Origin: Octopus sinensis
Lineage: Eukaryota
Assembly (NCBI RefSeq): GCF_006345805.1
Contig: NW_021833118.1
Span: forward strand, 19,155 to 83,154
DNA: 64,000 nucleotides
Direction: 5' to 3'
The number at the start of each line of letters is the position of its first letter. Positions within the stretch are counted from its first letter, which is position 1. Position numbers and translations under genes: made by a program. Below are positions 4,448-48,300 of this stretch, in pieces. The notes below the pieces were generated by a model. It made no database searches. It worked only from the letters and a program-made list of their open reading frames with translations, and was not told where the DNA came from.

Positions 4448-6443
4448 ATGATTCACTTCAACGTAATTGTATTCCTCCTGGGGCTCTTATCACCATTAGT
4501 TTATTCTCATGGTTGTCGTATGGAAGACGACGTATGTGAGTTTAAGCTGGTAATTTCCTATAAATTAACTATGCTATACAATAAGATCTTGGTACTACCC
4601 CATAATGGAAAACTCTACAAATATGACGTCACTAATTTTACAAATGCTCAACCGATACCAACTGATAAAGTCATTACGATGGATGGTTTCTCTGAGTCAG
4701 TTAAGGTGATTACAGTAAATGGTACAGTTCCTGGACCAACGATAGAAGTTTATAAAGGACAAAGAGTCATCATTGAAGTAGAAAACCAATTATTTTCAGA
4801 AGGTACAACAATACATTGGCACGGCTTGCATCAAAGAGAAACATCACATATGGATGGTGTACCTTGGGTTACACAGTGTCCAATTCAACCAGGTCAGTCG
4901 TTCAGATATGAATTTAATATTACACAAATTGGAACTTATTGGTACCATTCTCATATTGGAACACAACGTACCATGGGAGTATTTGGTGCTTTGATACTAC
5001 ACGAAAAGACAAAACGTAAAATGGAAGAACATGTAATGGTAATCTCAGACTACAATCATGACTGGGATTCCGATATGAGTTTTTTAAAAGTTGGCATGGG
5101 ACTTTATATGCATAAAAAAAAGGTTGATATTACCAGATCTGTTGAAGGAGGGCTTTTTAGTCTCTTTCAGTTCAATTCCGGAACTGTGAATGGTCGGGGC
5201 CGTTATTATGATGAGTCAGGGAAACATAATGAGGCTCCACTGACTGTCTTTGAAGTAGAATCAGGTAAAGAATATCGTTTTAGAGTGATCGCTGCAGGGG
5301 CTCTGTACCCATTTGAAGTATCTGTTGATGGTCACCAGATGGTAGTCATTGCCTCTGATGGTTATGACATAACACCAACACCTGTTGATTACTTTATCAT
5401 CAACCCCGGTGAGAGATTTGACTTCACAATACATGCAAATAACTCTGTCGGAAATTACTGGATCCGCGGACAGACACTGCAAATGGGCAAAAATAATACA
5501 TTTGAAGCAATTCTTCGATATAAAGGTGCACCGGTCGAAGAACCTAACTCCACAGTTTCTGACTGCATTCAACAAAAGAACTGCACTTTACTCAACTGTC
5601 CCTTTCTTTATAATCCCCATAAAAGTGATAAACCATGTTTAACTTTTGGTGACTTAGAATCTAATTATCGAGATGTACCGCCTTTCCGGTCTGGAAAGTT
5701 TAAGGAACATTTTTTAAATTTTGCTTTTCCTGGTGAACCTGGGAACACACCTGCATCAATAAATGGTCGGGTGTTCGTGGAACCCACGGTAAACCCTTTA
5801 ACACAACCAAATGAAATAGATAGTCCGTGTGATAAAGCCAACTGCGGTGTTGATAAAGTGTGTCGGTGTACTCATTCCATAAACCTGAAATTTGGTGATA
5901 CAATTCAAGTTGTAATGACAAATCTGGGAAAAGGTAAAGGGTTCTCCCACCCTATACACATGCATGGACATTCATTTTATGTAGTTAAAATGGGATTTCC
6001 AAAATACAATGAAACAACGGGAAGAATAATAAATGATAGTACAGATATTGATTGCAGAGGTGATCCGAAAATGAACTATTGTAATGATGCGGCTTGGTCA
6101 AACAGTAAATGGGAGGGAGACAACATCCCCGGAATGAATTTACGAAACCCTCCTCGAAAGGATGTAGTTATGGTCCCTACAGGTGGATACGTTGTAGTGA
6201 GAATACGGGCCGATAATCCTGGAATGTGGTTTGTGCACTGCCACATTGAATTACACAGCAAGGAGGGAATGGCTCTTATTCTTAACGAATCTTTCGCTCG
6301 GTTGCCAGAAATGCCGGACAATCTCCCCGGGTGTCGTAGCTTCAAGAGAAGCGTTTACAACATAAGGAAAGATACTGGAAAGGATGACTGTAAGGACAGA
6401 AATGGTGAAGATGATAAGGATGATAAAGGTGATAATCATGGCG
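4448..6443 (+). CDS. Multicopper oxidase / laccase-like gene A, main coding exon (signal peptide + three cupredoxin domains)
   Basis: ATG 4448 starts a signal peptide (MIHFNVIVFLLGLLSPLVYS). All four copper motifs are present: HWHG, WYHSH, HPIHMHGHSF, HCHIELHSKEGM. Upstream acceptor-like TTTCAG ends at 4423; phase-1 donor G|GTAAGG after 6443. Confidence 0.96.
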
Positions 6444-6879: not shown

Positions 6880-6915
<36 letters not shown>

Positions 6916-8140
6916 GTCTACTCTTTATAGAGGGCAAGTAACAGCACACGATCTTCTCTTGTTGGTTGGTCAGTGAACGAAGTTCATGTGGGTAACAAAT
7001 ACAGTTTAATTGGATCAGACTGAATTGTATCCTATTATCATTAAAAGCCAACTGCACCAGAGAACAAAATGACATTGATTATCAATAGATTAGGATACCT
7101 TCATCTATGATAAATCCTCGACTACCAATGACATCAGCTGATGCAATAAATCAGTTTTGTTTTCTGCTATCAACTGCAAACGAAGATGAGATTCTCCGGG
7201 AATTTTAAAGGTGATTACTTTTTCCAGGTATTTCTTTAGTTTTGCCATCAGGACACGGACGCACATACAATAAAGGAAACAACGTAAGTTCATTTCGTAA
7301 ATTAGGATGAATACCTGTTCGTAAAGAGTTGCAGTCCTTTACTCTTGACCAATTTAGAAAATGATTGTGTGGAGAGAAAAGAATCCTGATGTTCGAGCAA
7401 TGTTTTCCATCGTGGCAGTGCTGGTGGTGGTGATTGTGGTGGTGGTTGATCATCGTTGTTGCTAAAACTATATTTCGTATTACTATGTTATTATTCAAAC
7501 TGTATACGTAAATCTATTGTGGATTTCCTAGCAGATTACGTGAATGAAAAACGAAAATCAATGACAAACTAATGTGTTACTAGTTGTTCTCTTTGGATTA
7601 AGTGAATTAATTTTGTTTCTGGAGGATTCTCAGTGTAATGTGTTGTATTAGTTTGGCAACAAGGAAGTTATTCGTTGTAGGAACGCAATTCAATATTGAC
7701 TGATGTATATCGCAGATGTACGGCTATGTTTCATGAGTGACGTCCTTAACTTGGAAAGCAAAACTACTACAAACGTTGCAAATAATAAACGAATAAACTC
7801 TTACTAGTGATCATTGGAATGGAAGTCATCACAATTATGGAGTGATACACTGAGAACAAACACGTATTGAAATTAAAATGGTACCAGTAGCTGCGTGTGC
7901 ATGAATTATTTTTTGTCAGATGATGTGGAAACTGAAGAAACAAATGTATTTTTTACAGCAATAGGCTTATGGATAGAGTGCTAAATATTTAGAGAGTCTT
8001 AGTGGCATTTTTTGCTATTAGATCTTCCGTAATAGAGATATATTATTTAATTATATTGTTACATAAGTGAGAGGGAAATGACTTCTTGAAATGCAACTGC
8101 CATTGAAGTTTTATATATTTTTATCTTCTGGTCACACATG

Positions 8141-8392
8141 TGGAGGTGCGTGGTTTAGTGGTTAGGGTGTTGGCCTCATGATCGTAAGATTGTAGTACCG
8201 ATTCCTGGACCAGGTCACGCGTTGTTTTCTTGAGTAAAACACTTCGTTTAACTTTGCTCCACTTCACACTCAGCTGGGAAAAATGAGTAATCCTGCGACG
8301 GACCGGTGTCCTGTCAAAGCGGGGAATATATACGCCACAGAAACCGGAAAATCGTCCCTATGAGTTTATAGGACTCGAGAAGTAGATTTACT
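8141..8392 (+). mobile_element. tRNA-derived SINE in gene A intron (mirror copy ~32392-32643, minus)
   Basis: GGAGGTGCGTGGTTTAGTGGTTAGGG A-box, degenerate B-box GATTCCTGGACC; related to 56812-57155. Confidence 0.75.
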
Positions 8393-8811
8393 ACTATTTT
8401 TTACTACATATACCTAAAGTAGGGATCGGCAAACTATTTCAGATGTGGACTAGGTTGGGAATGTTTCGCTTTCTGAGGCAATACAAATAAAATGAAATGA
8501 AAATTAGACCATAGAGGGGTTTGCAAGTTCTAGCCATGACTGTACATGTTTATATTCAGATACAGTAAATCAAGCGCATTATTTTTTAATGTACCCATTT
8601 TTTTTAACGTGGCACAGAGTAATTCAAGGAGATTTGGTTGCTATTTCAGAAAATATATCTTTGTTCTTATTCCTAACAGGTGAAGTTCGTAGGTTACTTT
8701 TGGGGTGTTTAATGCGCAGTTCGAATTCGTTCCTCGCAAGAAAATGCATTATTGAAATAAATAAATAAACTTATGAAATATTTCATTATATAATAATGAG
8801 CGAAGTGTATC

Positions 8812-8850
<39 letters not shown>

Positions 8851-9529
8851 CAAAATCCCTCAGAAGGGAGTGGGAGAAAGAATAATATAAGTGAAGGGAG
8901 AGGAGAGAAAATAGTAATTCAGTGAAGGAGAAATAGGGAGAGTAATAGCCATAACTGAGAGGGAGTGAGAAAAAATAACAGCAATGTAAGAGAGGAAGTG
9001 GTAAAGAGAGTGTTGTGTATCTTATCTTCTACTATAATAATACTCTTGTGTATTTCTCCGTCACAACATATGAATAAGAAGGGAAGGGGTGATAGATGAT
9101 TAAGGAAAGAAGGGGTGAGGGCAAACTTGGTAGTGGGATGATAGAAGTCCTATGGTGAAGAAAAAATCAAACAGCGTTTCAACTTTGCGTGAGTATGTGT
9201 GTGTGTATATAAAAGGAAGTCATGGAAATGTGTGTGTGTGTGTGTGCGTGTGTGTGTGTGTGAGAGTGCAATGAAAGTGGGATGGTAAACATTCAACGCT
9301 GAAAAGAAAAATCAAACAGCGTTTCAACTCTGTGTGAATATATTTGTGTAAGCGTCTGCGTGGACAAGGAAAGTGTGTGAATGTATGTATCTGTGATTAT
9401 TATGTACCTTATTTATATAAAAAATACTAATTTTTGACGGCACGGGGCCGGCTAGTCTTTTTTTTTTTATTTTTTGCTATTTGTATATCTACCTAATAAA
9501 CTCAATATTGTATTTCTTTTCCTTTACAG

Positions 9530-9645
9530 TTGCAGACGACTACACAGTACGAGTGGCACTTGGAGTTCTAATCGCTGTCGTCTGTATCCTGGCCATTCTT
9601 GTTGTTGTTCTTGTGTTCCTTGTTATAAGGAAGCAAAAGAATTAA
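9530..9645 (+). CDS. Gene A terminal exon: transmembrane helix + basic cytoplasmic tail
   Basis: Polypyrimidine tract and acceptor TTTCTTTTCCTTTACAG|. Splicing in phase with the 6443 donor gives VADDYTVRVALGVLIAVVCILAILVVVLVFLVIRKQKN*. Confidence 0.88.
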
Positions 9646-10150
9646 CTTTGAAAATCACCTGAAATCAATACGATCATAGATAGCAGTGGGGGAGAGTGGG
9701 GTGGGGGCGAATCTAAGATGTGCTAGAGTAATTTTGTGGGGTCTGTAAGTGCATAGTGTAAGGTTCGAGTGGGGTTTGGTAACTGATGTGTGTCGTGGGT
9801 CATGTATGTACTTGGTGGTATATAGTACATATAGTGTATTAGTAATAGTATATAGTGTGATACAACACAATTACGACGGCATTATTAATTTTACATTATT
9901 ACTACACTATTATTAATGTGGTGTGTGTGTGTGTGTATTTGTGTGTGTGTCTGTGTGTGTTGAGTGGGGTTTGGTAACTGATGTGTGTCGTGGGTTATGG
10001 ATGTACTTGCTGGTATATAGTACAGATAGTGTATTAGTGATACAACACCATTACGACGGCATTATTAATTTTGCATTATTACTACACTATTATTAATGTG
10101 TGTGTGTGTGTGAGCGTGTGTGTCTGATAGTGTAGTAATAATGGTATTTG

Positions 10151-10540
10151 TGGAGGCGCAATGGCCCAGTGGTTAGGGCAGCGGACTCGCGGTTATAGGA
10201 TCGCGGTTTCGATTCCCAGACCGGGCGTTCTTAGTGTTTATTGAGCGAAAACACCTAAAAAAGCTCCACGAGGCTCCGGTAGGGGATGGTGGTGATCCCT
10301 GCTGTACTCTTTCACCACAACTTTCTCTCACTCTTACTTCCTGTTTCTGTTGTACCTGTATTTCAAGGGGCCGGCCTTGTCACTCTCTGTGTCACGCTGA
10401 ATATCCCCGAGAACTACGTTAAAGGTGCACGTGTCTGTGGAGTGCTCAGCCACTTACACGTTAATTTCACGAGCAGGCTGTTCCGTTGATTCGGATCAAC
10501 CGGAACCCTCATCGTCGTAACCGACGGAGTACTTCCATCC
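10151..10540 (+). mobile_element. tRNA-derived SINE (tRNA-Arg-like head); mirror copy ~30233-30621 minus
   Basis: GGAGGCGCAATGGCCCAGTGGTTAGGGCAGCGGACTCGCGG...GTTTCGATTCCCAGACCGGGCG; same head at 50405 and 51537. Confidence 0.85.
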
Positions 10541-11484
10541 AATAATGGTATTTATTCATAATTAGTGAAAGCTGTCTTCATTGACGTTTAACTCTAGGTT
10601 CGAACCTATTGAATAGCCACGACCATCCCGTCTGGTATGTAAATAATTCTTCTAGGATTACGTTATCTATCATGTCCAGTTTTTGCTTTAGAACGGAGGT
10701 AGATTTTTGACATCTAATTTTATCAACTCGAGTTGACGCGTAAATATCCACTCGTTGAGATCGTATAACCATTGAAGTAAATTGTGGGTTTCTTTATGTT
10801 AATCTAACAATTATAAACGCTGTTTTGTCCAGAGCATTGGTATTTAATAGTTGTAGACAGCAGAAGTGAAGCGTATATACTAAAAGAGTTAATGAGTGAT
10901 ACTGAAAGGGTAGAAGTATGATTCGAACCATTATCCTCAAGCTTATAACTAATACAATGTTTTAATAAAAGCGCGTTTGTATAAGATGTATATGTGTGTG
11001 TGTGTGTGTTCTTATTTCACAAAACAGTTGAAATAAATTTCTAGTATCAACTTCTCTATTGATATATTCAAATACACCTTTTATGATAACAAATATATGC
11101 AATGTCACTAATAATCTCATGTCCAAAAATTTCTTGAAGGCTGTTTATATTATTGGTTGCTATTAAAAGTCTTCGGTATTCAGCCTTATCTGGATTTTAA
11201 AATACAGTGATCATGTTTTGGTTTAAATCTGCCGCCTGTTCCGATATGTAAGTTCGTACATCAGATATTCGGTTCAGCCTAAATTTAAATTACTTACGTG
11301 ACATAACTCTCCATTTTTCCAGTTTTAGTTATCTCTCTTGTTACTTCGAACTGTTGATTTCTGTTCATAGTTGGTTTCTTGTTTTATGGCTTCACTTGAT
11401 GGTTTCGGACACTTATTTCGCTGCGAGGGTGAAGCCCATATCAGTCACGTGATATCTTAAAACCTTCCAGAATCGTTAGTATGC

Positions 11485-11675
11485 CGGACAAAATGCTAAG
11501 CGGCTTTTCGTCTGCCTTTATGTTCTAAAATCAAATTCCGCCGAGATTAACTTTGCCGTGCCATTCATCCTTTCAGAGTCGATAAAATAAGTACGGGTTG
11601 AGTACTGGTATAAACGTAACAGATTTAGCCCTACCCCTTAAATTGCAGGCGTTGTGCCAATATTTGAAACCATTC
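11485..11675 (+). mobile_element. SINE fragment with conserved central core (copies also near 2210-2380, 18240-18420, 22095-22270, 29095-29290, 34805-35025, 40000-40150, 59445-59590, 59750-59970)
   Basis: Recurring motif TTCATCCTTTCGGGGTCGATAAA(A/T)TAAGTACCAG, resembling from memory the MESC/Meta-type SINE core. Confidence 0.65.
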
Positions 11676-12299
11676 TCCAAATCCTTACTTTTCGCTGATT
11701 AAACAGTTTAAAACATACCGCGTAAAAAACTATTTTCGGAAGTAAGGACAATAATGGATTTCCCCTTAAGGCTACATGGCGGTGTAAACCATAGTATATT
11801 GCCATTGTTATTGCAGTCTTATTGTTTTAGACAGCAGGAAGATAGTGATAACTGTAAAAATAAAAAAAAGTTATGTCAATGCTCCCCAAACCGAATCGCT
11901 GGCATACTAAACTACAGTCTAGGTAGAAAAAGAAGTATTTAGGCTGAACAAAGAATACATAGGCAATACTTTTTTTCCTTTTGCTTCATCAGAATGTGCT
12001 AATTGCTTTTTGAATACAAATATATACATAGTTGAGGTGTGAACGAATCTAGATGTAAAACGGCGAAAAGACGTGTAAAAGAAATGTGAGAGAGGATGAA
12101 TAGGATACCCAGCAAGGAGAAGGTTAGATTAAACTAGTGATGTCCTGTTACCTGGATAGCTAAGATTATAATTACAAAATTAGAAAATACTGAGGTGATT
12201 CAATTGTTTTAATTGACATAGAAACATATTTAATGGGTTTAAAAATTGAATATGAATAATAGCTTCATAACGATTTTAATAGTGTATTAAGATATTTCA

Positions 12300-12524
12300 A
12301 AGAGAGAGAGAGAGAGAGAGACAGACAGAGAGAGACAGAGAACTTAAATCAGAAAATGAATCGCAGACTAAAAGGTCAGATATATAGCATATGACATGTT
12401 CTAGAAATAACGTTAATTTGGGTGAGAGAGTGAGTGAATGAGAGAGAGGGAGAGAGAGAGACACAGAGAGAGAGAGACAGACAGACAGGCATACAGACAG
12501 ACAAATAAATGGATAGACAGATAT

Positions 12525-12555
<31 letters not shown>

Positions 12556-12560
12556 TATAT

Positions 12561-12603
<43 letters not shown>

Positions 12604-12861
12604 TTAAATCAGTAAATGAATCGTAGACTAAAAGGTCAGATAGATAGCATATAACAGATGTTTTAGAAATAGCGTTAAATTGGGTAAGAGAGTGAGTGAA
12701 TGAGAGAGAGGGAGAAGGAGAGACAGACAGACAGACAGGGAGAGACAGACAGACAGGGAGAGACAGACAGACAGGGAGAGACAGGGTGAGAGAGACAAAA
12801 AGAGACAGACAGAGAAGGCAGACAGAAGAGACAGACAGGCATACAGACAGACAAATAATGA

Positions 12862-12930
<69 letters not shown>

Positions 12931-12953
12931 TAGACAGATATATAGATAGATAG

Positions 12954-12992
<39 letters not shown>
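12300..12992. repeat. Compound (GA)n/(GACA)n/(GATA)n microsatellite with an internal direct duplication (mirror 27783-28465)
   Basis: AACTTAAATCAG..GACTAAAAGGTCAGATA..TTCTAGAAATA unit at ~12341 and ~12601. Confidence 0.9.
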
Positions 12993-12993
<1 letters not shown>

Positions 12994-14189
12994 TAAAATA
13001 AAAAAGATATACGCTTTATAAATGGATTGTTTTCTGTAATCTTTGTATTCTATTCGCCCCGTCGACGGCGGGTTATCGTAAATATTTTATGATTCATCTT
13101 AACTTCCACAGAAATTGAAGAGTAATATGATGCTTTTTAAGCTGCTAACTTGTAATTCTCAGTGCATTACTTTTCCTTTTAATGATAATCATTGTAGAGG
13201 CGCATAACTATATTATTGTAGTCACTAATATTGAATCTACAAGTTTCTATGGTGATTAAAACAACTGCATCCCATCATAAATTTAATTATTAGTCTTAGT
13301 GGCTGAACTACAAGAAAGCGCTCAAATAACTTACCTTCCCACACCATTGAACAGCGGTATTTTCTGCTTTCAACTTCATTCCTCCCAGCATTTTTCATCT
13401 TATTACAACAACTTCATACAAAGTTCCATTATTTAAAAATTGTAACTAATTCTCAAGTACCGAAAGGGGAAATCTGCGATCACTGTAAATTTGGGAAAAT
13501 CTTAAAAATATATATTTGTATTATTATGCAGACCGTCATTTGTTGTTTGTACCAAAACACAATACACATTATTGTATTGAAAACACGACTGTGTTCTAGT
13601 TTCATTTTTTGTAGAGAGACTATTATTTTTAATATTTTCGTATAAAATACATGTTGCTCGTATGAAAAAAGTAAATACCCCAAATCCACCATAAAAGTTT
13701 CCATATCTTACATTCATAGTCTCATTTACATCTTGAGTTAAGGCTGGTACACAACACATTGGCGATTATTCATATTAGGATGGATACTATGGTAATGTAA
13801 ATATTATCACCCGTAGTGATAATTTTAGTGTTGGATTTATATGTTATCAGTCAAGTATTCTTATGTTGCTTGTCATGCATGTACATGGCATGCAAGACCA
13901 GTTTGGCATTGTGCTGTTAAGAAGAATGATTCCATAATTTCTCCAAATGCAAATATATTAAAACGCGTTCATAAAAGAGAAAGGAGAAAAGAAAAAAGAT
14001 GTATTTTGAACACTAATGTGTTCTGAAAATCGCGTTGAAAACGATAAAGCTTTTCCTCAATTTGAACAATGACAAATATATATTTTTATACATGAATTTT
14101 TGTAATACCCGTTGCGAGTTCCTGATATATTAATAATCTGATTTTCATTTCTGTTTTATAATACTAAAAACTATATATATATACCATGT

Positions 14190-14220
<31 letters not shown>

Positions 14221-14798
14221 GTATGTATGTATGTATGTATATATGAATATATATATATAGGTGTTAAATGACCACCTAAGGATATTAAATATTCAAAGAA
14301 TTTACTGTCTTTTTGCCGATATAAATAACAATGTTATGACCTATTGCTCTTAACAAATAGGTAAATAAATAAATAAAATAAACATACAGAAATATATATT
14401 AGAAATGGAAACCAAAATAATAAATTCAACAATAAAATAATTCAATCTTTAAATGATAAATTCAGTTCAATTTTATTTTGTGATACAAACAAATAACTCA
14501 TGTAGTAAATTAGCTGATGCCACACCATTGATAAAAGCAAGTTTTTCAAGAATAATGAAACATCGTTTGAAATATAATGAGATTTCATCAGATAGATATA
14601 TCTTCTTAAATGCCTTACGAAAAATAGCGCATGAAAATTTTTCTAACTGCTAACGCTTTTAAAAAAAAAAAACCTTTTAAAGAGCGAGTCCAATCGTAAA
14701 TAAATAATCTAACTGAAAGTTCGTAAATTCCTAAATTTAAATCTATTAGTATCTAGTTCTATAACCGATTTTGTTGCATAATACATACATTCATATAG

Positions 14799-14840
<42 letters not shown>

Positions 14841-15231
14841 GCACAAATACGTACACCACTCTATTTTTGTATATATACATACACATACACGTACGTCTAC
14901 ATACATGCATATTCATATGTACAAGTTTACTTATTCATACACACACACACTCATATATATATACATACATACATACATACATACATACATACACACACAC
15001 ACAGACGCACATATATATATATATATATATTATTTTAAGCAGCAGAAAATTCAACAAAATCTGTTACTCTGAGTTTCTCGTTGCCGTTCATCAGACAGAT
15101 GAACGGCAACGAGAAACTCAGAGTAACAGATTTTGCTGAATTTTCTGCTGCTTAAAATAAAGCATATTACTCTACCACTGGTATTTGAGTACTCTTTTTT
15201 CCACCTTGTTTCACATTTATGTGTTTACTCC

Positions 15232-20287: not shown

Positions 20288-21865
20288 TGTAACAGTCGCT
20301 TATTTCGCCCTTGTTCTTGTACAGAGTAACAATCTTTTCATCTCTCATGTCTTGCGGTACAGCTCCCTCTCTCCTGCATTGGCAGAGGACTTTGTGCAAA
20401 GAGCGCGGTAGGGTAATCTTGCAGCGCTTGATGAGATGTGGTGGGATGCTGTCGCTGCCTTGAGCTTTGCCCGCAACTAGGCTGTCGATGGTCTTGCTGA
20501 GCTGATGAATACATGTTGCATTCATCGACCTCACCAAGGCTTTCGATCTTGTCAGCAGAGACGGCTTCTTCAAGGCGATCCATATGATTGGCTGTCCTCC
20601 AACACTGCACAGCTTAATCGAGTTCTTTCACTCAAACATGTAGGGGACTGAGCAGTTCAACGGCAACCTCTCTGAGCCCTTCGACATACGCAACGGAGCC
20701 AAGCAGGGCTGTGTGCTCGCCCCAAAGATCTTTGTGATCTTTTTCTCTCTCCTTCTGAGATGCGCATTCGGCACAGCACCAGAAGGGATCTACATGCGGA
20801 CCAGATCAGATGGCAGACCCTTCAATCTCGCCTGTCTAAAAGCGAGGACAAAGGTCTGTGAAGCTGTCATCAGAAACATTCTATTTGCTGACCACGCTGC
20901 AGTTACGGCCCACTCCCAACGGGAGCTGCAGCTGCTAATGGACCGCTTCTCTCAGGCCTGTAAGGATTTTGAGCTGACCATCAGCCTGAAGAATACAAAC
21001 GCCCTGGCGCAAGGCACACCAGCACAACCTGCCGTCACCATCAATGACTACGAACTTGAAGTTGTTCATCTGTTCACCTACCTTGAGTCCATAACTGACA
21101 ACCTCTCTTTCGATGCCGTGATTGACAAGAGAATTGGGAAGGCAAGCACTACGCTCACGCGCCTCACATCAAGAATGTGGACAAACCCACAGTTGACAGC
21201 GAAAACTAAGATGGCTGTGTACAACGCCTGTGTCCTCAGCACCCTGTTGTATGGCTGCGAGACATGGACCACATACATCGTCAGAAAAAAATAGCTGAAC
21301 AGCTTCCATCTCAGAAGCCTACGACGCATACTGGGCATCTCTTGCCAGGACGAGATGACCAACACCGACGTTCTGACTTGTGGTGGCTTCCCTTCCATGT
21401 ACACCTTGCTGAGACAACGTCGACTACGCTGGCTAGGCCATGTTCGCCGTATGGAGGACGGCCAAATCTCAAAAGACATTCTCTACAGAGAATTCGCAGC
21501 AGGACAGAGAAACAAGAGCCGCCCGCAGCTGAGGTACAAGAACGTGTGCAAGAGGGACAGGGAGGCGCTCAACATCGACATCAACTCCTGGGAGGACCTA
21601 GCAGCAGACCACACTAGGTAAAAAAGCACACTTCTCAAACAGTTACGGATCGGTGAAGTGAAGCTGTCAGCTGTAGCTGCAGAAAAGCGAGCCCGATGTA
21701 AGGGATCGAAAGCCGACAGACCGGAATCTACATACAGATGCGACCGAGACTGCCATTCTCGCATTGGTCTCCATGGCCACAAGAGGCGCTGCTCAAGCCC
21801 AGTGGCCCAACCTGGACAATAAATGGACGGACGTGATACCCATGGTCAGCGATGACCGAAGGTAT
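20288..21865 (+). mobile_element. RTE-clade LINE, 5'-truncated and decayed, with inverted 5' segment (~20288-20505 on minus)
   Basis: Plus strand: AFIDLTKAFDLVSRDG, KQGCVLAP, LFADHA, LLYGCETW, RRLRWLGHVRRMEDG. Minus strand: GKAQGSDSIP..GAVPQDMRDEKIVTLYKNKGEISDC. The 3' end is duplicated inverted at ~18635-18929. Confidence 0.92.
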
Positions 21866-28464: not shown

Positions 28465-31144
28465 TTGAAATATCTTAATACACTATTAAAATCGTTATGA
28501 AGCTATTATTCATATTCAATTTTTAAACCCATTAAATATGTTTCTATGTCAATTAAAACAATTGAATCACCTCAGTATTTTCTAATTTTGTAATTATAAT
28601 CTTAGCTATCCAGGTAACAGGACATCACTAGTTTAATCTAACCTTCTCCTTGCTGGGTATCCTATTCATCCTCTCTCACATTTCTTTTACACGTCTTTTC
28701 GCCGTTTTACATCTAGATTCGTTCACACCTCAACTATGTATATATTTGTATTCAAAAAGCAATTAGCACATTCTGATGAAGCAAAAGGAAAAAAAGTATT
28801 GCCTATGTATTCTTTGTTCAGCCTAAATACTTCTTTTTCTACCTAGACTGTAGTTTAGTATGCCAGCGATTCGGTTTGGGGAGCATTGACATAACTTTTT
28901 TTTATTTTTACAGTTATCACTATCTTCCTGCTGTCTAAAACAATAAGACTGCAATAACAATGGCAATATACTATGGTTTACACCGCCATGTAGCCTTAAG
29001 GGGAAATCCATTATTGTCCTTACTTCCGAAAATAGTTTTTTACGCGGTATGTTTTAAACTGTTTAATCAGCGAAAAGTAAGGATTTGGAGAATGGTTTCA
29101 AATATTGGCACAACGCCTGCAATTTAAGGGGTAGGGCTAAATCTGTTACGTTTATACCAGTACTCAACCCGTACTTATTTTATCGACTCTGAAAGGATGA
29201 ATGGCACGGCAAAGTTAATCTCGGCGGAATTTGAATTTAGAACATAAAGGCAGACGAAAAGCCGCTTAGCATTTTGTCCGGCATACTAACGATTCTGGAA
29301 GGTTTTAAGATATCACGTGACTGATATGGGCTTCACCCTCGCAGCGAAATAAGTGTCCGAAACCATCAAGTGAAGCCATAAAACAAGAAACCAACTATGA
29401 ACAGAAATCAACAGTTCGAAGTAACAAGAGAGATAACTAAAACTGGAAAAATGGAGAGTTATGTCACGTAAGTAATTTAAATTTAGGCTGAACCGAATAT
29501 CTGATGTACGAACTTACATATCGGAACAGGCGGCAGATTTAAACCAAAACATGATCACTGTATTTTAAAATCCAGATAAGGCTGAATACCGAAGACTTTT
29601 AATAGCAACCAATAATATAAACAGCCTTCAAGAAATTTTTGGACATGAGATTATTAGTGACATTGCATATATTTGTTATCATAAAAGGTGTATTTGAATA
29701 TATCAATAGAGAAGTTGATACTAGAAATTTATTTCAACTGTTTTGTGAAATAAGAACACACACACACACACATATACATCTTATACAAACGCGCTTTTAT
29801 TAAAGCATTGTATTAGTTATAAGCTTGAGGATAATGGTTCGAATCATACTTCTACCCTTTCAGTATCACTCATTAACTCTTTTAGTATATACGCTTCACT
29901 TCTGCTGTCTACAACTATTAAATACCAATGCTCTGGACAAAACAGCGTTTATAATTGTTAGATTAACATAAAGAAACCCACAATTTACTTCAATGGTTAT
30001 ACGATCTCAACGAGTGGATATTTACGCGTCAACTCGAGTTGATAAAATTAGAAGTCAAAAATCTACCTCCGTTCTAAAGCAAAAACTGGACATGATAGAT
30101 AACGTAATCCTAGAAAAATTATTTACATACCAGACGGGATGGTCGTGGCTATTCAATAGGTTCGAACCTAGAGTTAAACAATAATAACGTCAATGAAGAC
30201 AGCTTTCACTAATTATGAATAAATACCATTATTGGATGGAAGTACTCCGTCGGTTACGACGATGAGGGTTCCGGTTGATCCGAATCAACGGAACAGCCTG
30301 CTCGTGAAATTAACGTGTAAGTGGCTGAGCACTCCACAGACACGTGCACCTTAACGTAGTTCTCGGGGATATTCAGCGTGACACAGAGAGTGACAAGGCC
30401 GGCCCCTTGAAATACAGGTACAACAGAAACAGGAAGTAAGAGTGAGAGAAAGTTGTGGTGAAAGAGTACAGCAGGGATCACCACCATCCCCTACCGGAGC
30501 CTCGTGGAGCTTTTTTAGGTGTTTTCGCTCAATAAACACTAAGAACGCCCGGTCTGGGAATCGAAACCGCGATCCTATAACCGCGAGTCCGCTGCCCTAA
30601 CCACTGGGCCATTGCGCCTCCACAAATACCATTATTACTACACTATCAGACACACACGCTCACACACACACACACATTAATAATAGTGTAGTAATAATGC
30701 AAAATTAATAATGCCGTCGTAATGGTGTTGTATCACTAATACACTATCTGTACTATATACCAGCAAGTACATCCATAACCCACGACACACATCAGTTACC
30801 AAACCCCACTCAACACACACAGACACACACACAAATACACACACACACACACACACATTAATAATAGTGTCGTAATAATGTAAAATTAATAATGCCGTCG
30901 TTATGGTGTTCTATCACACCATATACTGTTACTAATACACTATCTGTACTATATACCACCAAGTACATACATGACCCACGACACACATCAGTTACCAAAC
31001 GCCACTCGAACCTTACACTATGCACTTACAGACCCCACAAAATTACCTTAGCAAATCTTAGATTCGCCCCACCCCACTCTCCCCCACTTCTATCTATGAT
31101 CGTATTGATTTCAGGTGATTTTCAAAGTTAATTCTTTTGCTTCC

Positions 31145-31242
31145 TTATAACAAGGAACACCAGAACAACAACAACAAGACCAGGATACAGACGACAGCGA
31201 TTAGAACTCCAAGTGCCACTCGTACCATGTAGTCGCCTGCAG
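31145..31242 (-). CDS. Gene B terminal exon: hydrophobic C-terminus without cytoplasmic tail
   Basis: Acceptor TTTCTTTTCATTTACAG|. In phase with the 35389 donor it gives AAGDYMVRVALGVLIAVVCILVLLLLFWCSLL*. There are 26 nt versus 27 nt in gene A between ATCCTG and CTTGTTATA. Confidence 0.72.
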
Positions 31243-31933
31243 CTGTAAATGAAAAGAAATACAATATTGAGTTTATTAGGTAGATACACAAATAGCAAAT
31301 AATTTAAAAAAAAGACTAGCTGGCCCTGTGCCGTCAAAAATGACGCCTAATTGTAGTATTTTATATATAAATAAGGTACATAATAATCAGAGATACATAT
31401 ATTCACACACTTTCCTTGTTCACGCAGACGCTTACACAAATATATTCACACAGAGTTGAAACGGTGTTTGATTTTTCTTTTCAGCGTTGAATGTTTACCA
31501 TCGCACTTTCATTGCATTCACACACACACACACATACACAAACATACACACACACTTCCATGACTTCCTTTTATATACACACACACACATACTCACGCAA
31601 AGATGAAACGCTGTTTGATTTTTCTTCACCGTAGGACTTCTATCATCCCACTACCAAGTTTGCCCTCACCCCTTCTTTCCTTAATCATCTATCACCCCTT
31701 CCCTTCTTATTCATATGTTGCGGCGGAGAAATACACAAGAGTATTATTATAGTAGAAGATAAGATACACAACACTCTCTTTACCACTTCCTCTCTTACAT
31801 TGCTGTTATTTTTTCTCACTCCCTCTCAGTCATGGCTATTACTCTCCCTATTTCTCCTTCACTGAATTACTATTTTCTCTCCTCTCCCTTCACTTATATT
31901 ATTCTTTCTCCCACTCCCTTCTGAGGGATTTTG

Positions 31934-31972
<39 letters not shown>

Positions 31973-33624
31973 GATACACTTCGCTCATTATTATATAATG
32001 AAATATTTCATAAGTTTATTTATTTATTTCAATAATGCATTTTCTTGCGAGGAACGAATTCGAACTGCGCATTAAACACCCCAAAAGTAACCTACGAACT
32101 TCACCTGTTAGGAATAAGAACAAAGATATATTTTCTGAAATAGCAACCAAATCTCCTTGAATTACTCTGTGCCACGTTAAAAAAAATGGGTACATTAAAA
32201 AATAATGCGCTTGATTTACTGTATCTGAATATAAACATGTACAGTCATGGCTAGAACTTGCAAACCCCTCTATGGTCTAATTTTCATTTCATTTTATTTG
32301 TATTGCCTCAGAAAGCGAAACATTCCCAACCTAGTCCACATCTGAAATAGTTTGCCGATCCCTACTTTAGGTATATGTAGTAAAAAATAGTAGTAAATCT
32401 ACTTCTCGAGTCCTATAAACTCATAGGGACGATTTTCCGGTTTCTGTGGCGTATATATTCCCCGCTTTGACAGGACACCGGTCCGTCGCAGGATTACTCA
32501 TTTTTCCCAGCTGAGTGTGAAGTGGAGCAAAGTTAAACGAAGTGTTTTACTCAAGAAAACAACGCGTGACCTGGTCCAGGAATCGGTACTACAATCTTAC
32601 GATCATGAGGCCAACACCCTAACCACTAAACCACGCACCTCCACATGTGTGACCAGAAGATAAAAATATATAAAACTTCAATGGCAGTTGCATTTCAAGA
32701 AGTCATTTCCCTCTCACTTATGTAACAATATAATTAAATAATATATCTCTATTACGGAAGATCTAATAGCAAAAAATGCCACTAAGACTCTCTAAATATT
32801 TAGCACTCTATCCATAAGCCTATTGCTGTAAAAAATACATTTGTTTCTTCAGTTTCCACATCATCTGACAAAAAATAATTCATGCACACGCAGCTACTGG
32901 TACCATTTTAATTTCAATACGTGTTTGTTCTCAGTGTATCACTCCATAATTGTGATGACTTCCATTCCAATGATCACTAGTAAGAGTTTATTCGTTTATT
33001 ATTTGCAACGTTTGTAGTAGTTTTGCTTTCCAAGTTAAGGACGTCACTCATGAAACATAGCCGTACATCTGCGATATACATCAGTCAATATTGAATTGCG
33101 TTCCTACAACGAATAACTTCCTTGTTGCCAAACTAATACAACACATTACACTGAGAATCCTCCAGAAACAAAATTAATTCACTTAATCCAAAGAGAACAA
33201 CTAGTAACACATTAGTTTGTCATTGATTTTCGTTTTTCATTCACGTAATCTGCTAGGAAATCCACAATAGATTTACGTATACAGTTTGAATAATAACATA
33301 GTAATACGAAATATAGTTTTAGCAACAACGATGATCAACCACCACCACAATCACCACCACCAGCACTGCCACGATGGAAAACATTGCTCGAACATCAGGA
33401 TTCTTTTCTCTCCACACAATCATTTTCTAAATTGGTCAAGAGTAAAGGACTGCAACTCTTTACGAACAGGTATTCATCCTAATTTACGAAATGAACTTAC
33501 GTTGTTTCCTTTATTGTATGTGCGTCCGTGTCCTGATGGCAAAACTAAAGAAATACCTGGAAAAAGTAATCACCTTTAAAATTCCCGGAGAATCTCATCT
33601 TCGTTTGCAGTTGATAGCAGAAAA

Positions 33625-34603
33625 CAAAATTTAAAAACTGTTCCTCAAACTTTCCAGACCGGAAAGGCGGTACATCCTGATAATTAGATTCTAAGTCACC
33701 AAAAGTTAAACATGGTTTATCACTTCTATAGGGATCATAAAGAAAGGGACAGTTGAGTAAAGTGCAGTTCTTTTGTTGTATGCAGTCAGAAACTGTGGAG
33801 TTAGGTTCTTCGACCGGTGCACCCTTATATCGAAGAATTGCTTCAAATGTATTATTTTTGTCTATTTGCATTGTCTGTCCGCGGATCCAGTAATTTCTGA
33901 CAGAGTTATTTGCATGTATTGTGAAGTCAAATCTCTCACCGGGGTTGATGATAAAGTAATCAACAGGTGTTTTGTTTTTATGTCAAAACCATCAGAGGCA
34001 ATGACTACCATCTGGTGACCATCAATAGATACTTCAAATGGATACAGAGCCCCTGCAGCGATCACTCTAAAACGATATTCTTTACCTGTTTCTACTTCAA
34101 AGACAGTCAGTGGAGCCCCATTATGTTTCCCTGACTCATCATAATAACGGCCCCGACCATTCACAGTTCCGGAATTGAACTGAAAGAGACTAAAAAGCCC
34201 TCCTTCAAGAGAACTGGTAATACCAACCTTTTGGTTATTCACATAAAGTCCCATGCTAACTTTTAAAAAACTCATATCGGAATCCCAGTCATGATTGTAG
34301 TCTGAGATTACCATTACATGTTCTTCCATTTTACGTTTTGTCTTTTCGTGTAGTATCAAACCGCCAAATAGTCCCATCGTACGTTGTGTCCCAAGATGAG
34401 AATGGTACCAAAATGTTCCAGTTTGTGTAACATTAAATTCATATCTGAACGTCTGACCTAGTTGAATTGGACACTGTGTAACCCAAGGTACACCATCCAT
34501 ATGTGATGTTTCTCTTTGATGCAAGCCGTGCCAATGTATTGTTATAGATTCTGAAAATAATTGGTTTTCTACTTCAATGATGACTCTTTGTTCTTTATAA
34601 ACT
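33625..34603 (-). pseudogene. Internal laccase fragment (third paralog) inside gene B intron
   Basis: Spans VYKEQRVIIEVENQ..HWHG..WYHSH..KFEEQFLNF. It has a +2 frameshift near 33970, no signal peptide and no C-terminal copper motifs. Confidence 0.93.
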
Positions 34604-35388
34604 GGATCTCGAAGCACGTAAATGCTATAAATAACAAAATTTCGATATTGTGTTCAAAAATACATTTGGATACAAAAATTCGAAAGCTGTCTGTGGGATC
34701 CGAACCCACATCTCCATTTATGTCTTTCGAGGTCAAGTTCGCAAAAAAGAATTATTTCACGTTCTTTCGAAATTTTATCGAATTCTTACATGAAAAATAT
34801 ATATATTTCTTTACTGCCCACAAGGGGCTAAACACAGAGGGGACAAACAAGGACAGACAAAGGGATTAAGTCGACTACATCGACCCCAGTGCGTAACTGG
34901 TACTTAATTTATCGACCCCGAAAGGATGAAAGGCAAAGTCGACCTCGGCGGAATTTGAACTCGGAACGTAACGACAGACGAATTTCGCCCGGCGTGCTAA
35001 CGTTTCTATCAGCTCGCCGCCTTAACATGAACAATATATAAATTTATGTGTAGGTGTAAGTGTATGTGTGTCTGTATATGCGCCTTAGCATTTGTCTCCT
35101 ATCAGACAACCGGAGTTGGTTTGTTTATGTTCCTTTAACTCAGTGGTTCAACAAAGCCGACAGATAGAATTAGTACCAGGATTAAAAATGAGTGCTAGTA
35201 TTGATTTGTTTGACTAAATCCTTCAAAGCGGTGATTCAGCATGGCTGTATTCCAATGAATGAAACATGAAAAAGATAAAAGACAACGATATAAAAAAAAG
35301 ACAAAAAAAGAAAGAAAAGAAAGAAAGAAAGAAAAGAAACGAGATTGCTGAGAAACGATAAAATAAGTTATTGAAAACTATTCCTTAC

Positions 35389-37348
35389 CGTGTTCTGAAG
35401 TATTTTTATCACCAACACCTTTTGTTTCTTCATTATAAACTCCTTTCTCGAAACTTCGACATGCAGGGAAATTGACAGGGATTTTTGGTAAGTGGGCAAA
35501 AGATTCATTTAGAACCATTGCCATTCCGTCCTTACTGTGTAATTCAATATGGCAGTGCATGATCCATACTCCAGGATTATCGGCCACTATTCTCACTACA
35601 ACGTATCCACCTGTAGGGACCATAATTGTATCCTTTTGAGGGGGGGTTCGTAAATTCATTCCGGGGATGTTGTCTCCTTCCCAGTTGCTATTTGACCAAA
35701 CCGCATCATTACAATAGTTCATTTTCGGATCACCTCTGCAATCAATATCTACAGTATCATTTATTATTTCTCCCGTTGTTTCATTGTATTTTGGAAACCC
35801 CATTTTAACTACATAAAATGAATGTCCATGCATGTGTATAGGGTGGGAGAACCCTTTACCTTTTCCAAGATTTGTCATTACAACTTGAATTGTATCACGA
35901 TATTTCAGGTTTATAGAATAAGTACACCGACACACTTTATCAACACCGCAGTTGGCATTATCACACAGACTATCTATTTCTTTTGGTTGTGTTAAAGGGT
36001 TTACCGTGGGTTCCACGAACACACGACCATTTACTGATGCTGGTGTGTATCCTGGCTCGCCAGGAAAAGCAAAATTTAAAAAATATTCCTCAAACCTCCC
36101 AGACTTGTATGGAGGTACAACAACAGGGTAATCAAGTTCCAAGTCATTAAACTGTAAACACCGTTTATTACTTTTCTCGGGATAATAAAGAAAGGGGCAG
36201 TTGAGTAAAGTGCAGTCCTTTTGTTGAACGCAGTCAGAAACCGTGGAGTTGGGTTCTTCGTCCAGTGCACCCTTATAACGAAGAATTGCTTCAAATGTAT
36301 TATTTTTTTCAATTTCCATTGTTTTTCCACGAATCCAATAATTTCCGACAGAGTTATTTGCCTTCAATATAAAGTCAAATCTCTCACCCGGACTGAGGAT
36401 GAAATAATCAACAGCTGTTGGTTTTAGGTCAAAACCATCAGAGGCAACGACTACCATCTGGTGACCATCAACAGACACTTCAAACGGGTAAAGGTACCCT
36501 GCAGCGATCACTCTAAAACGATACTCTTTACCTTGTTCTACTTCAAAGACAGTCAGTGGAGCCCCATTATGTTTCCCTGTTTCATCATAATAACGGCCTC
36601 GACCATTCACAATACCAGAATGGAAATTAAAAAGACTAAAATGTGCCCCATCTAGAGATTTGGAACTGCCAATGTTTTTACGGTTCCAATAGAATCCGAA
36701 TTTCATTTTTAAGTAACTCACATCGGAGTCCCAGTTATGGTTGTAGTCTTTTATTAACATCACATGTTCTTCCATTTTACGTTTTGTCTTTTCGTGTATT
36801 ATAAAACCACCAAATAGTCCCATCGTACGTTGTGTCCCAAGATGAGAATGGTACCAATAAGTTCCAGTTTGTGTAACATTAAATTCATATCTGAACGACT
36901 GACCTGGTTGAACTGGACACTGTGAAACCCAAGGTACGCCATCCATATGAGGTGTTCCTTTTTGATGAATGCCGTGCCAATGTATTGTTGTAGATTCTGA
37001 AAATAATCGGTTTTCTACTTCAATGATGACTCTTTGTCCTTTATAAACTTCTATTGTTGGTCCAGGAACTGTGCCATTAACTGCAATCACCTTAACTGAC
37101 TCAGAGAAACCATCCATCGTAATGACTTTATCAGTTGGTATCGGTTGAGCATTTGTAAAATTAGTGACGTCATATTTGTAGAGTTTTCCATTATGGGGTA
37201 GTACCAAGATCTTATTGTATAGCATAGTTAATTTATAGGAAATTACCAGCTTAAACTCACACACGTCGTCTTCCATACGACAACCATGAGAATAAACTAA
37301 TGGTGATAAGAGCCCTAGGAGGAATACAATTATGTTGAAGTGAATCAT
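35389..37348 (-). CDS. Multicopper oxidase / laccase-like gene B, main coding exon
   Basis: ATG 37348 starts MIHFNIIVFLLGLLSPLVYS. Motifs HWHG, WYHSH, HPIHMHGHSF and HCHIELHSKDGM are intact. Same phase-1 donor G|GTAAGG at 35389. Confidence 0.96.
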
Positions 37349-45363: not shown

Positions 45364-48300
45364 ATGAAAGGAAACAGGTGGAACCTCCCATGGACTGATG
45401 GTGTCACAATAAAAACACTGGTAAATGCGCAACCTGATAATCACTACCTCATGAGTGACAATAAATAATATTGTGAATAACGGTAGTAATTAAACAAAAG
45501 CAAATGATGGTGATAGTGTTCCACCCGGCAGGCTCAGAGATTGTGGTCCGGCTCCAGCCTGTCGATATCCAGAAGGGACTACCACATATGGCGTAGATGG
45601 AGCAAGCAAATTAATGCTGTGGTCATGGAGCGTTACTACCTGAGCAGCCTGGTAGAAGAAAATGGTGCTCAAATTAGGGGTTACCGACAACATATGTATG
45701 ATCATTGGAGAGAAAAGGGATTGTTTCAACTCACGGAACAGACACTATGTGATCAAGCTAGAACAATAAAAAAAAATTGTCGGCTCACAGAAGTAGAGCT
45801 CGAAACTATCAAAAGACGGGTCTTGGAAAATAGCAGCAGAGATAACGATGAAAATACAGCTCTTACTATTAGAAGTAATTTCATATCACAGGAAAGGAGC
45901 AGTGGTAGTCTACTTGATGAGAGACATATAGATGATCTAAAAGAAGACAGTAAAACAAATGGCGACATGACAGATGAACAAAAAGCAATCTACAACAGAA
46001 TAAAGGCAACACTACAGGAGAACGATAACATTATTTGCAAATTAAAAAAGGTTGATCGGTGGAAGTTGAACCAAGAAACGAAAAATATCAATGAAATTCT
46101 GAAATACATCAGAATAAACAACATCACAGAAACAAATAATTTGATCAAGGCAGCAAGTATTGTTGTAGTAGAAAACGTGGGTGTTGATGTCAAGAAAAAG
46201 AAACATAATGGGAGTGATAAAAGAAAAGATCCATGGTGGTAAAGATGAATACAGGCTGGGTTAGACATGATCTCGAAGGAAATCTCTGTGTTAGACCGAA
46301 AAGAGAAAGGGGAGCTTAAAAGCGAACAAAAATACAGGGCTCTGAACAGGAAGTATAATATTGAAAGAAAGGGCTTGAAAGTGGTGATGGAGGAACTGAA
46401 GCAGCGCCTCGTTGCAAAGAAAACAAAAATGGTAAGATCCGACCAAATAATGAAGGGTTACCACCAGAATAGGTTATTCAGAGTAGATCAGAAGAGTTTC
46501 TGTAAAGAAATAAATGGAGAGTGTACAGATGAAAAGTTGATACCACATAACAATGAAAGTCAAAGGCTTTGGAATGACATCTGGAGCAAAGACAAGGAGC
46601 ACAAGAAGGATGCAGAATGGTTGCAAGAACTGAAACAAACAGTAGTCTGTCGAAAACAGGCAGAACTAGTCATTTCAGTTAGGGAAGTGAAGGAAATCAG
46701 CAAGAAAAAATGAGCAACTGGAAAGCACCGGGACCAGATGGAATTCAAGGCTACTGGATCAAGAGATTTGGTGAATGTCATGCACGAATAGCTGCGCAAC
46801 TCGACACCTTGTTAAATGCCGACCAAGTAACACCAGAGTGGTTGACATTGGGCAAGACAGTGCTGTGCCTGAAAAACATCGAAAAAGGCAACAAGGTTGA
46901 CAATTACAGGCCAATATCCTGTTTGCCACTTATGTGGAAATTATTGACTGGAATTCTTGCAGAGTCAATGTACGAATATCTGGAAGAAAATGGAGTCCTG
47001 CTACATGAGCAGAAGGATTGCAAGCGTAAGTGCAGATGTACCAAGGATCAGCTCCTGATAGACAAACCTGTACTTAGAGACTGCAAGAAGAGGAAAAGTA
47101 ACTTAGACCTGTCACGGATCGACTATCGCAAGGCGTACGATATGATCCCACATTCTTGGATTATGGAATGTATGAACCTATTTGGTATTGCATCGAATGT
47201 TGAGCGATTGCTTGGAAAAAGTGTGGCCAAATGGAGGACGGACCTGACAGCATACGGAAGAGGTTTAGGGACAGTAGAAATAAAAAAGGGGCATCTGCCT
47301 GTCCCCACTGATATTTATACTGTGCTTGATATCACTGACACTGATTCCGAGGAAAGCAAGAGCTGAATATGTATTCAAAAGCCGCCAACAAAAAGTCAAC
47401 CATTTGCTATTCGTGGATGACCTCAAACTTTATGGTAAAGATGAAGCCCAAGTTAGTTCCCTCGTCGATGCGGTGTATACCTTCAGTATTGATATCAGAA
47501 TGGAGTTCGGACTGAGAAAGTGTGATGTGTTAGCCTTGAAGAGAGGCGCAATCAAATGTATGGACGGGCTAACGAAACTATAGGAAGAGGTTATGAAAGA
47601 GATAGAAGAGACAGGCTATAAGTACTTGGGAATTTTGGAAATGGATAAATTGATGGAGAAAGAAATAACAGAAAAATTTAAGGTGGAATGCTTACGCAGA
47701 CTGAGACTGATCCTTAAGTCAAAATTAAACGGACGGAATAAGATTTGAAGCTATCAAAACCTGGGCGGTTTCACACCTTAGATATGGAGCAGGGATAATC
47801 GCATGGACAGCAGACGAACTAAACAGCTTCGACAGAAAGACAAGGAAGTTGCTAAATAGATATGGGACACTCGACCCAAAAAGTGACACAGACAGACTGT
47901 ATGTACGAAGAAAAAGGGGGAGAAGAGGACTTATTGGATGCATTAGCGCAGAAGAAAACAACATAGCATGGTATGTAAAAAAAACCCCCACAGAACCGAT
48001 ATTATAAGTAAGAAGGTCAGGCTTGTGTAGGATGAAAGATTGCGAAGATAAAGCACTGTACAAGAAATTGAAAACGAATGAAACTGAAAAAGAAAGAATG
48101 CATGGTCAATTTCATAAGGATGTTGAAGATAGGACAGACAAAGAAAAAAGAAGGCTGTGGATGATAAAAAGTGATTTAGAAACGGAGGCGCTAATCTGTG
48201 CTGCCCAAATGCAAGTACTAAGAACAAACTACATAAAATACAGAATAGACAACACATCAGATAGTGATAAATGCAGAATCTGTGGACAAAATGGTAAAAC

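What the first reader, a model, noticed from the sequence alone, without database searches (positions are those of the whole stretch)
31145..31242. One-base frameshift converts a transmembrane anchor into a GPI-signal-like tail in the mirror paralog
Seen: gene A ends ..VCILAILVVVLVFLVIRKQKN* (TM helix plus stop-transfer tail). Gene B's exon is net 1 nt shorter, so the (GTT)n Val run is read as (TTG)n Leu and ends ..EHAAGDYMVRVALGVLIAVVCILVLLLLFWCSLL*. Substitutions also change VADD to AAGD, supplying small residues. Known: GPI signals are small omega residues, a short polar spacer and a terminal hydrophobic run with no tail; ceruloplasmin and hephaestin show GPI and TM anchoring among multicopper oxidases. 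Inference: the paralogs differ in anchor mode through a frameshift-tolerant repeat.
Basis: partly seen in the sequence, partly recalled or inferred. Interest (0 to 1): 0.85.

Follow-up and report, generated by a model that had tools for sequence, protein, structure and literature searches.

The report
Octopus laccase loses its cytoplasmic tail
A real one-base deletion strips the short charged tail from an octopus copper-oxidase's membrane anchor, in an exon the gene seems to have borrowed from a decayed neighbour, but the new end looks too hydrophobic to be a good lipid-anchor (GPI) signal.

Summary
The exon at 31242-31145 (-) is one base shorter than gene A's exon (9530-9645), and read from donor 35389 it ends in 24 uncharged residues with no basic tail. 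The deletion is not an assembly slip: public contigs from 2 of 3 non-RNA-labelled runs laid (two studies) bridge it in the shifted frame. RefSeq holds the same 685-aa spliced protein on two Octopus sinensis contigs.

Two parts of the reading need changing. First, B is not simply A's mirror copy. Its catalytic exon belongs to another paralog clade, and the last exon is A-type, left by a decayed A duplicate (33621-34603), so B is probably a chimera. Second, GPI anchoring is doubtful. The tail scores 53-63 against a maximum of 43.8 for 130 human GPI signals, the A-A-G site has only a 5-residue spacer, and 55 of 113 possible one-base deletions in this exon give a similar end. The splice junction was neither seen nor excluded in RNA. 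Most likely B is a tail-less single-pass laccase; GPI about 0.2. The mechanism has precedents (MICA*008, CEACAMs).

The parts
31145..31242 (-). Terminal coding exon of gene B (A-type, frameshifted): 32 residues ending in a 24-residue uncharged hydrophobic run, stop at 31147-31145
   Evidence: equals the end of RefSeq protein P0121
31177..31178 (-). Site of the 1-nt deletion relative to gene A
   Evidence: alignment; bridged in the shifted frame by contigs of X1 and X7, in-frame letters in the listed contigs of X2 and X10
35389..37348 (-). Gene B main coding exon: hydrophobic N-terminus read as a signal peptide (by eye), three Cu-oxidase domains, copper motifs intact; C-clade sequence with a 15-residue stalk deletion; donor 35389|GT
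35381..35388 (-). Read-through end if B is not spliced (three more residues, then stop): a soluble 656-aa form
   Evidence: the O. vulgaris B-type models P0122 and P0124 end this way
33621..34603 (-). A-prime: decayed fragment of an A-type main exon (95% to 4747-5727); 5' part missing; a deletion equivalent to 5728-7154 removed its donor
   Evidence: same truncated end in O. vulgaris P0132
25710..33629 (-). A-type intron, terminal exon and 3' region of the A-prime duplicate, mirror of 7155-15031 (97.8% identical)
4448..6443 (+). Gene A main coding exon, donor 6443|GT
   Evidence: identical to P0128 over 665 of 665 residues
9530..9645 (+). Gene A terminal exon: TM helix plus basic tail (the ancestral frame)

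Best explanation
Gene B is a young chimeric laccase of the Octopus vulgaris/sinensis lineage. SHOWN: its catalytic exon derives from paralog C and keeps the copper motifs; no C-type terminal exon lies in the window; downstream sits a decayed inverted copy of gene A that lost its own donor but kept its terminal exon; that exon carries a real 1-nt deletion that removes the basic tail and leaves 24 uncharged residues at the C-terminus. INFERRED: B's donor (35389) splices to this orphaned acceptor (31242), as RefSeq models it. Because U-rich TM-coding DNA stays hydrophobic when shifted, the new end is still a full-strength membrane helix. It stops transfer in the ER membrane like A's anchor, so the protein is most likely a tail-less single-pass (type I) laccase, with little or no GPI exchange.
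For: Indel in independent contigs: X1 record 1 and X7 record 25. RefSeq 685-aa model on 2 contigs, not flagged low quality. Tree: B groups with O. vulgaris P0122 and P0124 (99/97) inside the C clade (97/96), apart from A. Paralog tails hit only the two A-type exons strongly (output partly cut). Donor and acceptor match A's. Tail hydrophobicity: Kyte-Doolittle sum 52.6-63.2 for omega candidates 649-657 against a top value of 43.8 among 130 human GPI signals. Best 19-mer is -6.1 on the Hessa scale (values recalled), and only 15 of 77 TM-plus-tail homologues are more hydrophobic. PMC10491789 states 15-20 hydrophobic residues and an 8-12 residue spacer, and that a membrane-crossing helix would sit out of reach of PIGT Arg549.
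Against: No RNA junction seen; the only X10 contig listed over the indel is A-type and accounts for all depth at 31161 and 31179. Both O. vulgaris B-type models are annotated unspliced. By a crude pyrimidine score the acceptor is not unique: 2 of 104 YAG sites score higher and 7 tie. The hydrophobicity reference is human, and no GPI predictor could be run. N649-T-S has a 10-residue spacer that fits the pattern. MICA*008 shows that frameshifted TM ends can be GPI-anchored by a non-standard route.
Confidence: 0.45

Rival explanations
1. One reading: B splices to this exon and the tail-less hydrophobic end is cleaved and replaced by GPI (omega at N649 or A654), giving a GPI-anchored laccase beside TM-anchored paralogs.
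For: No charged residue in the last 24 positions; two small-residue triplets upstream (N-T-S with a 10-residue spacer, A-A-G with 5) after a polar stalk. Precedents for TM-to-GPI change by a single mutation in the TM exon: MICA A5.1, CEACAM60. The shifted frame is present in two studies.
Against: Hydrophobic run of 24 against 15-20; propeptide of 31-36 residues; score above all 130 human signals. A contig in X7 has Val rather than Ala at the first exon position together with the Gly change, which would remove A-A-G if it is the shifted copy (inferred from equal depth, 53.1 and 53.5). No excess of change in the exon.
Confidence: 0.18
2. B does not use this exon. It ends three residues after the unused donor as a secreted 656-aa laccase (or is little expressed), and the frameshifted exon is simply a decaying piece of the A-prime pseudogene.
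For: The unspliced frame closes cleanly at 35381. O. vulgaris P0122 and P0124 are annotated so. The exon lies in the duplicate that carries the broken A-prime fragment and has diverged at the rate of flanking non-coding DNA. X10 shows only the A-type exon.
Against: RefSeq splices B to this exon on two contigs. The donor is a good consensus like A's. No AATAAA or ATTAAA lies in the 1080 bases after the unspliced stop. Gene A, which has spliced models, also has an unspliced model (P0126), so unspliced annotations are weak evidence.
Confidence: 0.27
3. B splices to the exon, but the tail-less product is unstable or retained in the ER and degraded, so the frameshift is a mild loss-of-function change in a redundant young copy.
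For: 13 of 21 octopus proteins fetched end in a TM helix plus a basic tail, and P0121 is the only one with a tail-less helix; the other 7 are unspliced, partial or divergent models. B's main exon differs more between the two species (643/653) than C does (705/706), though A differs as much (686/703).
Against: The main exon is open and keeps the copper motifs in both species. No direct test was possible.
Confidence: 0.08
4. The deletion is an assembly error and B has an ordinary TM anchor with tail.
For: One extra C or T in a short run would restore the frame. The assembly probably has a 1-nt error elsewhere, at 33124. X2's listed contig is in frame over a B-type UTR.
Against: X1 matches the window letter for letter across the site at depth 57.6, and X7 has the same frame. 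X2's contig carries the A-type substitutions around the site, so it is an A-type path, a mosaic or another allele, not a corrected B.
Confidence: 0.02

Closest known systems
MICA*008 / MICA A5.1 (human; PMC8044845 and PMC10316631, passages read)
   Same: A one-base indel in a trinucleotide-repeat TM exon shifts the frame, causes an early stop and removes the cytoplasmic tail.
   Different: MICA*008 is shown to be GPI-anchored and is first made as a truncated soluble protein. Here the shifted end remains a 24-residue, strongly hydrophobic helix, anchoring is untested, and the change sits in a paralog's borrowed exon rather than in an allele.
GPI-anchored CEACAMs (CEACAM5-8, pig CEACAM60; PMC13212111, passages read)
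   Same: Paralogs of one family differ in anchor after a small mutation in the TM exon.
   Different: There a stop codon shortens the TM segment below membrane-spanning length and PI-PLC release was shown. Here the hydrophobic run is hardly shortened. Pig CEACAM62, with a stop near the TM end and still spanning the membrane, is the closer analogue of my best reading.
Molluscan three-domain laccases (Pfam PF07732, PF00394, PF07731) with a C-terminal TM anchor
   Same: Domain set and copper motifs; 77 of 136 fetched homologues end in a TM helix plus tail.
   Different: B is the only one of 21 octopus proteins fetched with a tail-less helix. 4 non-octopus homologues also end hydrophobic without a charged tail but are far less hydrophobic and may be partial models.
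Frameshift robustness of hydrophobicity (Bartonek et al. 2020, PMC7084103, passages read)
   Same: TM segments keep their hydrophobic profile after a one-base shift.
   Different: That is a proteome-wide statistical result; this is a natural single case.

Membership tests
GPI-anchored protein | N-terminal signal peptide | tested here: inconclusive
   Hydrophobic N-terminus nearly identical to the other paralogs'; judged by eye, no predictor available
GPI-anchored protein | No cytoplasmic or charged tail after the hydrophobic run | tested here: met
   Last 24 residues uncharged, provided the splice is used
GPI-anchored protein | Small omega, non-Pro omega+1, small omega+2 | tested here: met
   N649-T-S and A654-A-G, pattern from PMC10491789
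GPI-anchored protein | Hydrophilic spacer of 8-12 residues | tested here: inconclusive
   5 residues for A654 (not met); 10 for N649 (met, but the propeptide is 36 residues)
GPI-anchored protein | Hydrophobic stretch of 15-20 residues, moderate hydrophobicity | tested here: not met
   24 residues; score 52.6-63.2 against a top of 43.8 in 130 human signals; my scoring follows the paper's description and may differ at window edges
GPI-anchored protein | PI-PLC release or GPI remnant on the omega residue | not testable with these tools
   Needs expressed protein
Three-domain multicopper oxidase (laccase-like) | Cu-oxidase_3, Cu-oxidase and Cu-oxidase_2 domains | tested here: met
   E 2.8e-44, 2e-29 and 3.4e-38 for B
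Three-domain multicopper oxidase (laccase-like) | Four copper-binding His/Cys motifs | tested here: met
   All four found in P0121 (motif patterns recalled)
Single-pass type I membrane protein | C-terminal helix hydrophobic enough to integrate | tested here: met
   Best 19-mer -6.1 (A: -7.0) on the recalled Hessa scale, mean KD 3.43
Chimeric gene by terminal-exon capture | Exons of different paralog origin joined in one mRNA | tested here: inconclusive
   Different origins shown; the join rests on the RefSeq model and was not seen in RNA contigs

The most novel reading that the evidence does not exclude
A young octopus laccase was assembled from one paralog's catalytic exon and the orphaned anchor exon of a neighbouring pseudogene, and a single-base deletion in that exon switched it from transmembrane to GPI anchoring (omega N649 or A654). 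That would be a MICA*008-like switch caught soon after origin in a mollusc, with the TM-anchored parent still intact 22 kb away.
Probability: 0.18. Interest if true: 0.55.

Novelty: new member of a known kind. Interest (0 to 1): 0.33.

Why it matters
If GPI-anchored, B would be an invertebrate, enzyme-family example of an anchor switch that the papers I read describe for vertebrate receptors (MICA, CEACAM). It would give a near-isogenic natural pair for asking how hydrophobic a signal the transamidase accepts. If it stays transmembrane, it is a tidy but modest case of exon capture and frameshift tolerance in a young gene cluster. The protein is already in RefSeq as 'laccase-like'. One search (laccase + cephalopod + GPI) found 0 papers, and two others listed none on octopus laccase anchors by title; subscription journals are mostly not covered.

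Tried and rejected
No whole genome is held, so B's lost C-type exon could be sought only in the window. One search listed no run on record as RNA; X10 is RNA by guess only. Junction 35389>31242: not among the 15 joints shown (471 hidden, repeat-dominated), so no verdict. A search for shorter proteins carrying the shifted tail: 0 of 28 candidates passed. Galian et al. 2012 (marginal hydrophobicity) is not held; I saw only its title and how PMC10491789 cites it. The scan's earlier findings: nothing by sequence, place or words. Rejected: assembly error. Rejected: that the whole mirror is a false duplication, because O. vulgaris annotation holds separate A, A-prime-like and B-like models with consecutive accessions. 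Rejected: that the (GTT)n repeat is required. Rejected: excess change in the exon as a sign of selection. A possible cryptic acceptor in front of A-prime (34624) scores lower, 12 against 15 of 20 pyrimidines; not followed further. No structure prediction was run, as it cannot tell anchor modes apart.

Full report
Setting. The first 46.5 kb of the window form a large inverted duplication centred near 20 kb. Each arm holds a laccase-like gene whose catalytic part lies in one long exon: gene A (ATG 4448, donor 6443|GT, + strand) and gene B (ATG 37348, donor 35389|GT, - strand). Both have the three Cu-oxidase Pfam domains and intact copper motifs. The closest named proteins are from Octopus vulgaris, O. 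sinensis and O. bimaculoides.

The observation. Gene A's terminal exon (9530-9645) encodes a TM helix followed by RKQKN. The mirrored exon (31242-31145) differs by 7 substitutions and one missing base behind 31177. The in-frame form is ancestral: 13 of 21 octopus proteins fetched end in this helix plus a basic tail, 7 are unspliced, partial or divergent models, and 1 is B itself.

Is the indel real? One extra C or T in a short run would restore the frame, so an error was a fair worry. I laid 4 of the 24 runs listed on 30950-35620. X1 record 1 (255 letters, depth 57.6) matches 30971-31225 with no difference and no gap. X7 record 25, from another study, spans 30950-31222 with 7 other letters and a single gap, at 31066 in the UTR, so it has the shifted frame too. 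X1 differs from the window at 9 of 1014 letters elsewhere (record 4), so it may not be the source sample, though I cannot be sure. Against: the contig listed for X2 carries the A-type letters at 31161, 31177 and 31179 on a B-type UTR. That may be a mosaic of two near-identical copies or an in-frame allele; it accounts for 68.6 of 160-170 depth at those places. RefSeq also holds the exact spliced 685-aa protein (P0121) under two accessions on two contigs, the longer 59 Mb, without a low-quality flag; one may be this window's contig. The deletion is real DNA.

What B is. B's main exon is not a copy of A's. It is 612/651 identical to paralog C (P0125) but 525/638 to A. In a tree of 17 rows it groups with two O. 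vulgaris proteins (99/97) inside the C clade (97/96), with the O. bimaculoides C protein outside, while A groups elsewhere. It lacks 15 stalk residues of C. Between B's donor and the shifted exon lies A-prime (34603-33621), 95% identical to A's 4747-5727, without its 5' part and with a deletion equivalent to 5728-7154 that removed its donor. O. vulgaris P0132 ends with the same truncation, so this predates the split of the two species. From there on the arm is A-type (97.8% over 7.9 kb). Paralog tails hit only the two A-type exons strongly in the window (output partly cut). So the shifted exon belongs by descent to the decayed A duplicate, and a spliced B would be a chimera of a C-type enzyme and an A-type anchor exon.

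Is it spliced? For: the RefSeq model; a donor and acceptor like A's; no canonical poly(A) hexamer in the 1080 bases after the unspliced stop. Against or open: both O. vulgaris B-type models end unspliced. In the guessed-RNA run X10 the one contig listed over the indel is A-type and makes up all depth at 31161 and 31179, and the joints table was swamped by a repeat, so the junction was neither shown nor excluded. A search for short proteins with the shifted tail found 0 of 28 candidates. I put use of the splice at about 0.7.

Is it a GPI signal? PMC10491789 (introduction and passages read) gives the pattern: small omega, non-Pro omega+1, small omega+2, a hydrophilic spacer of 8-12 and 15-20 hydrophobic residues; it adds that a membrane-crossing helix would lie out of reach of PIGT Arg549. 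B's run is 24 residues. A654-A-G leaves a spacer of 5; N649-T-S leaves 10 but a 36-residue propeptide. Scored as in PMC9520029 (Kyte-Doolittle, window 9, summed from omega), B gives 52.6-63.2 for omega 649-657. The top value in that paper's table of 130 human GPI proteins is 43.8 (rows 1-120 seen, sorted downwards). Even the far candidate G644, with a 41-residue propeptide, gives 44.9-51.3. On the Hessa scale (values recalled) the best 19-mer is -6.1, against -7.0 for A, and only 15 of 77 TM-plus-tail homologues are more hydrophobic. The end is thus a full-strength TM helix without a tail. The reference set is human and no predictor could be run, so GPI is lowered, not excluded.

Is it special? 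55 of 113 single-base deletions simulated in A's exon give an end of at least 24 residues with no charge in the last 15 and mean hydropathy above 1.5; nearly all positions from base 40 to 96 do so. This agrees with the general retention of hydrophobicity under frameshift (PMC7084103, passages). The exon has diverged from A at 7/116, the adjoining intron and UTR at 34/794 (p=0.35), so there is no sign of either constraint or acceleration. The first exon residue is Ala in most paralog types, and one X7 contig has Val there with the Gly change, so A-A-G may not travel with the deletion.

Comparison and verdict. A one-base indel in a repeat-coded TM exon that yields a GPI anchor is known from MICA A5.1/*008 (PMC8044845, PMC10316631; passages), and a stop in the TM exon does so in CEACAMs (PMC13212111; passages). 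The proposed mechanism is therefore a known kind. The best reading is a chimeric, tail-less single-pass laccase (0.45); then unspliced and secreted or little expressed (0.27), GPI-anchored (0.18), unstable product (0.08), assembly error (0.02). Interest 0.33: real, testable and with an unnoticed chimeric origin, but precedented and probably not the anchor switch proposed.

Noticed in passing
window 33124 and its mirror in the left arm: All 4 runs put a T in behind 33124 at full depth, a probable 1-nt assembly error. The arms are identical over 7155-8950 (0 differences in 1796 bases), so both carry it; part of the arm identity may come from assembly or polishing rather than gene conversion.
   Followed up: partly
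window 8951-10060 against 31830-30730 (approximate): A 1.1-kb patch around the terminal exon differs by about 4% between the arms while the flanks differ by 0-0.2%: a patchwork that suggests gene conversion sparing the exon, or collapse of the flanks in assembly.
   Followed up: partly
window 4448-4750 and 37348-37050: The first 100 or so codons of A and B are 95-99% identical, while the rest of the exon is 69-96% and the last 200 bases 54-77%; the N-termini of the other octopus paralogs are also nearly the same, as if the 5' ends are homogenised.
   Followed up: no
window about 33973: A-prime has a 2-base insertion relative to A. The listed contigs do not confirm it and O. vulgaris P0132 appears to read through, so it may be private or an error.
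   Followed up: partly
window about 6428 (donor inferred, not mapped): RefSeq isoform P0130 of gene A lacks 5 stalk residues, implying an alternative donor 15 bases upstream of 6443.
   Followed up: no
proteins P0124 and P0129 (O. vulgaris): O. vulgaris has a second B-type gene and a second A-type fragment with neighbouring accessions, so the B plus A-prime unit may be duplicated there.
   Followed up: no
proteins P0018, P0057, P0104, P0111, P0114: Some non-octopus homologues end in moderately hydrophobic, short-tailed or tail-less stretches after small residues, which look more like ordinary GPI signals than B does; some may be partial models.
   Followed up: no
window 20644-21618, 45517-47580, 57484-58443: Broken open frames that look like LINE reverse-transcriptase pieces (family recalled, not searched).
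   Followed up: no
window about 34800-34990: A very high-copy repeat in B's intron (summed depth in the tens of millions, also present in X10).
   Followed up: no
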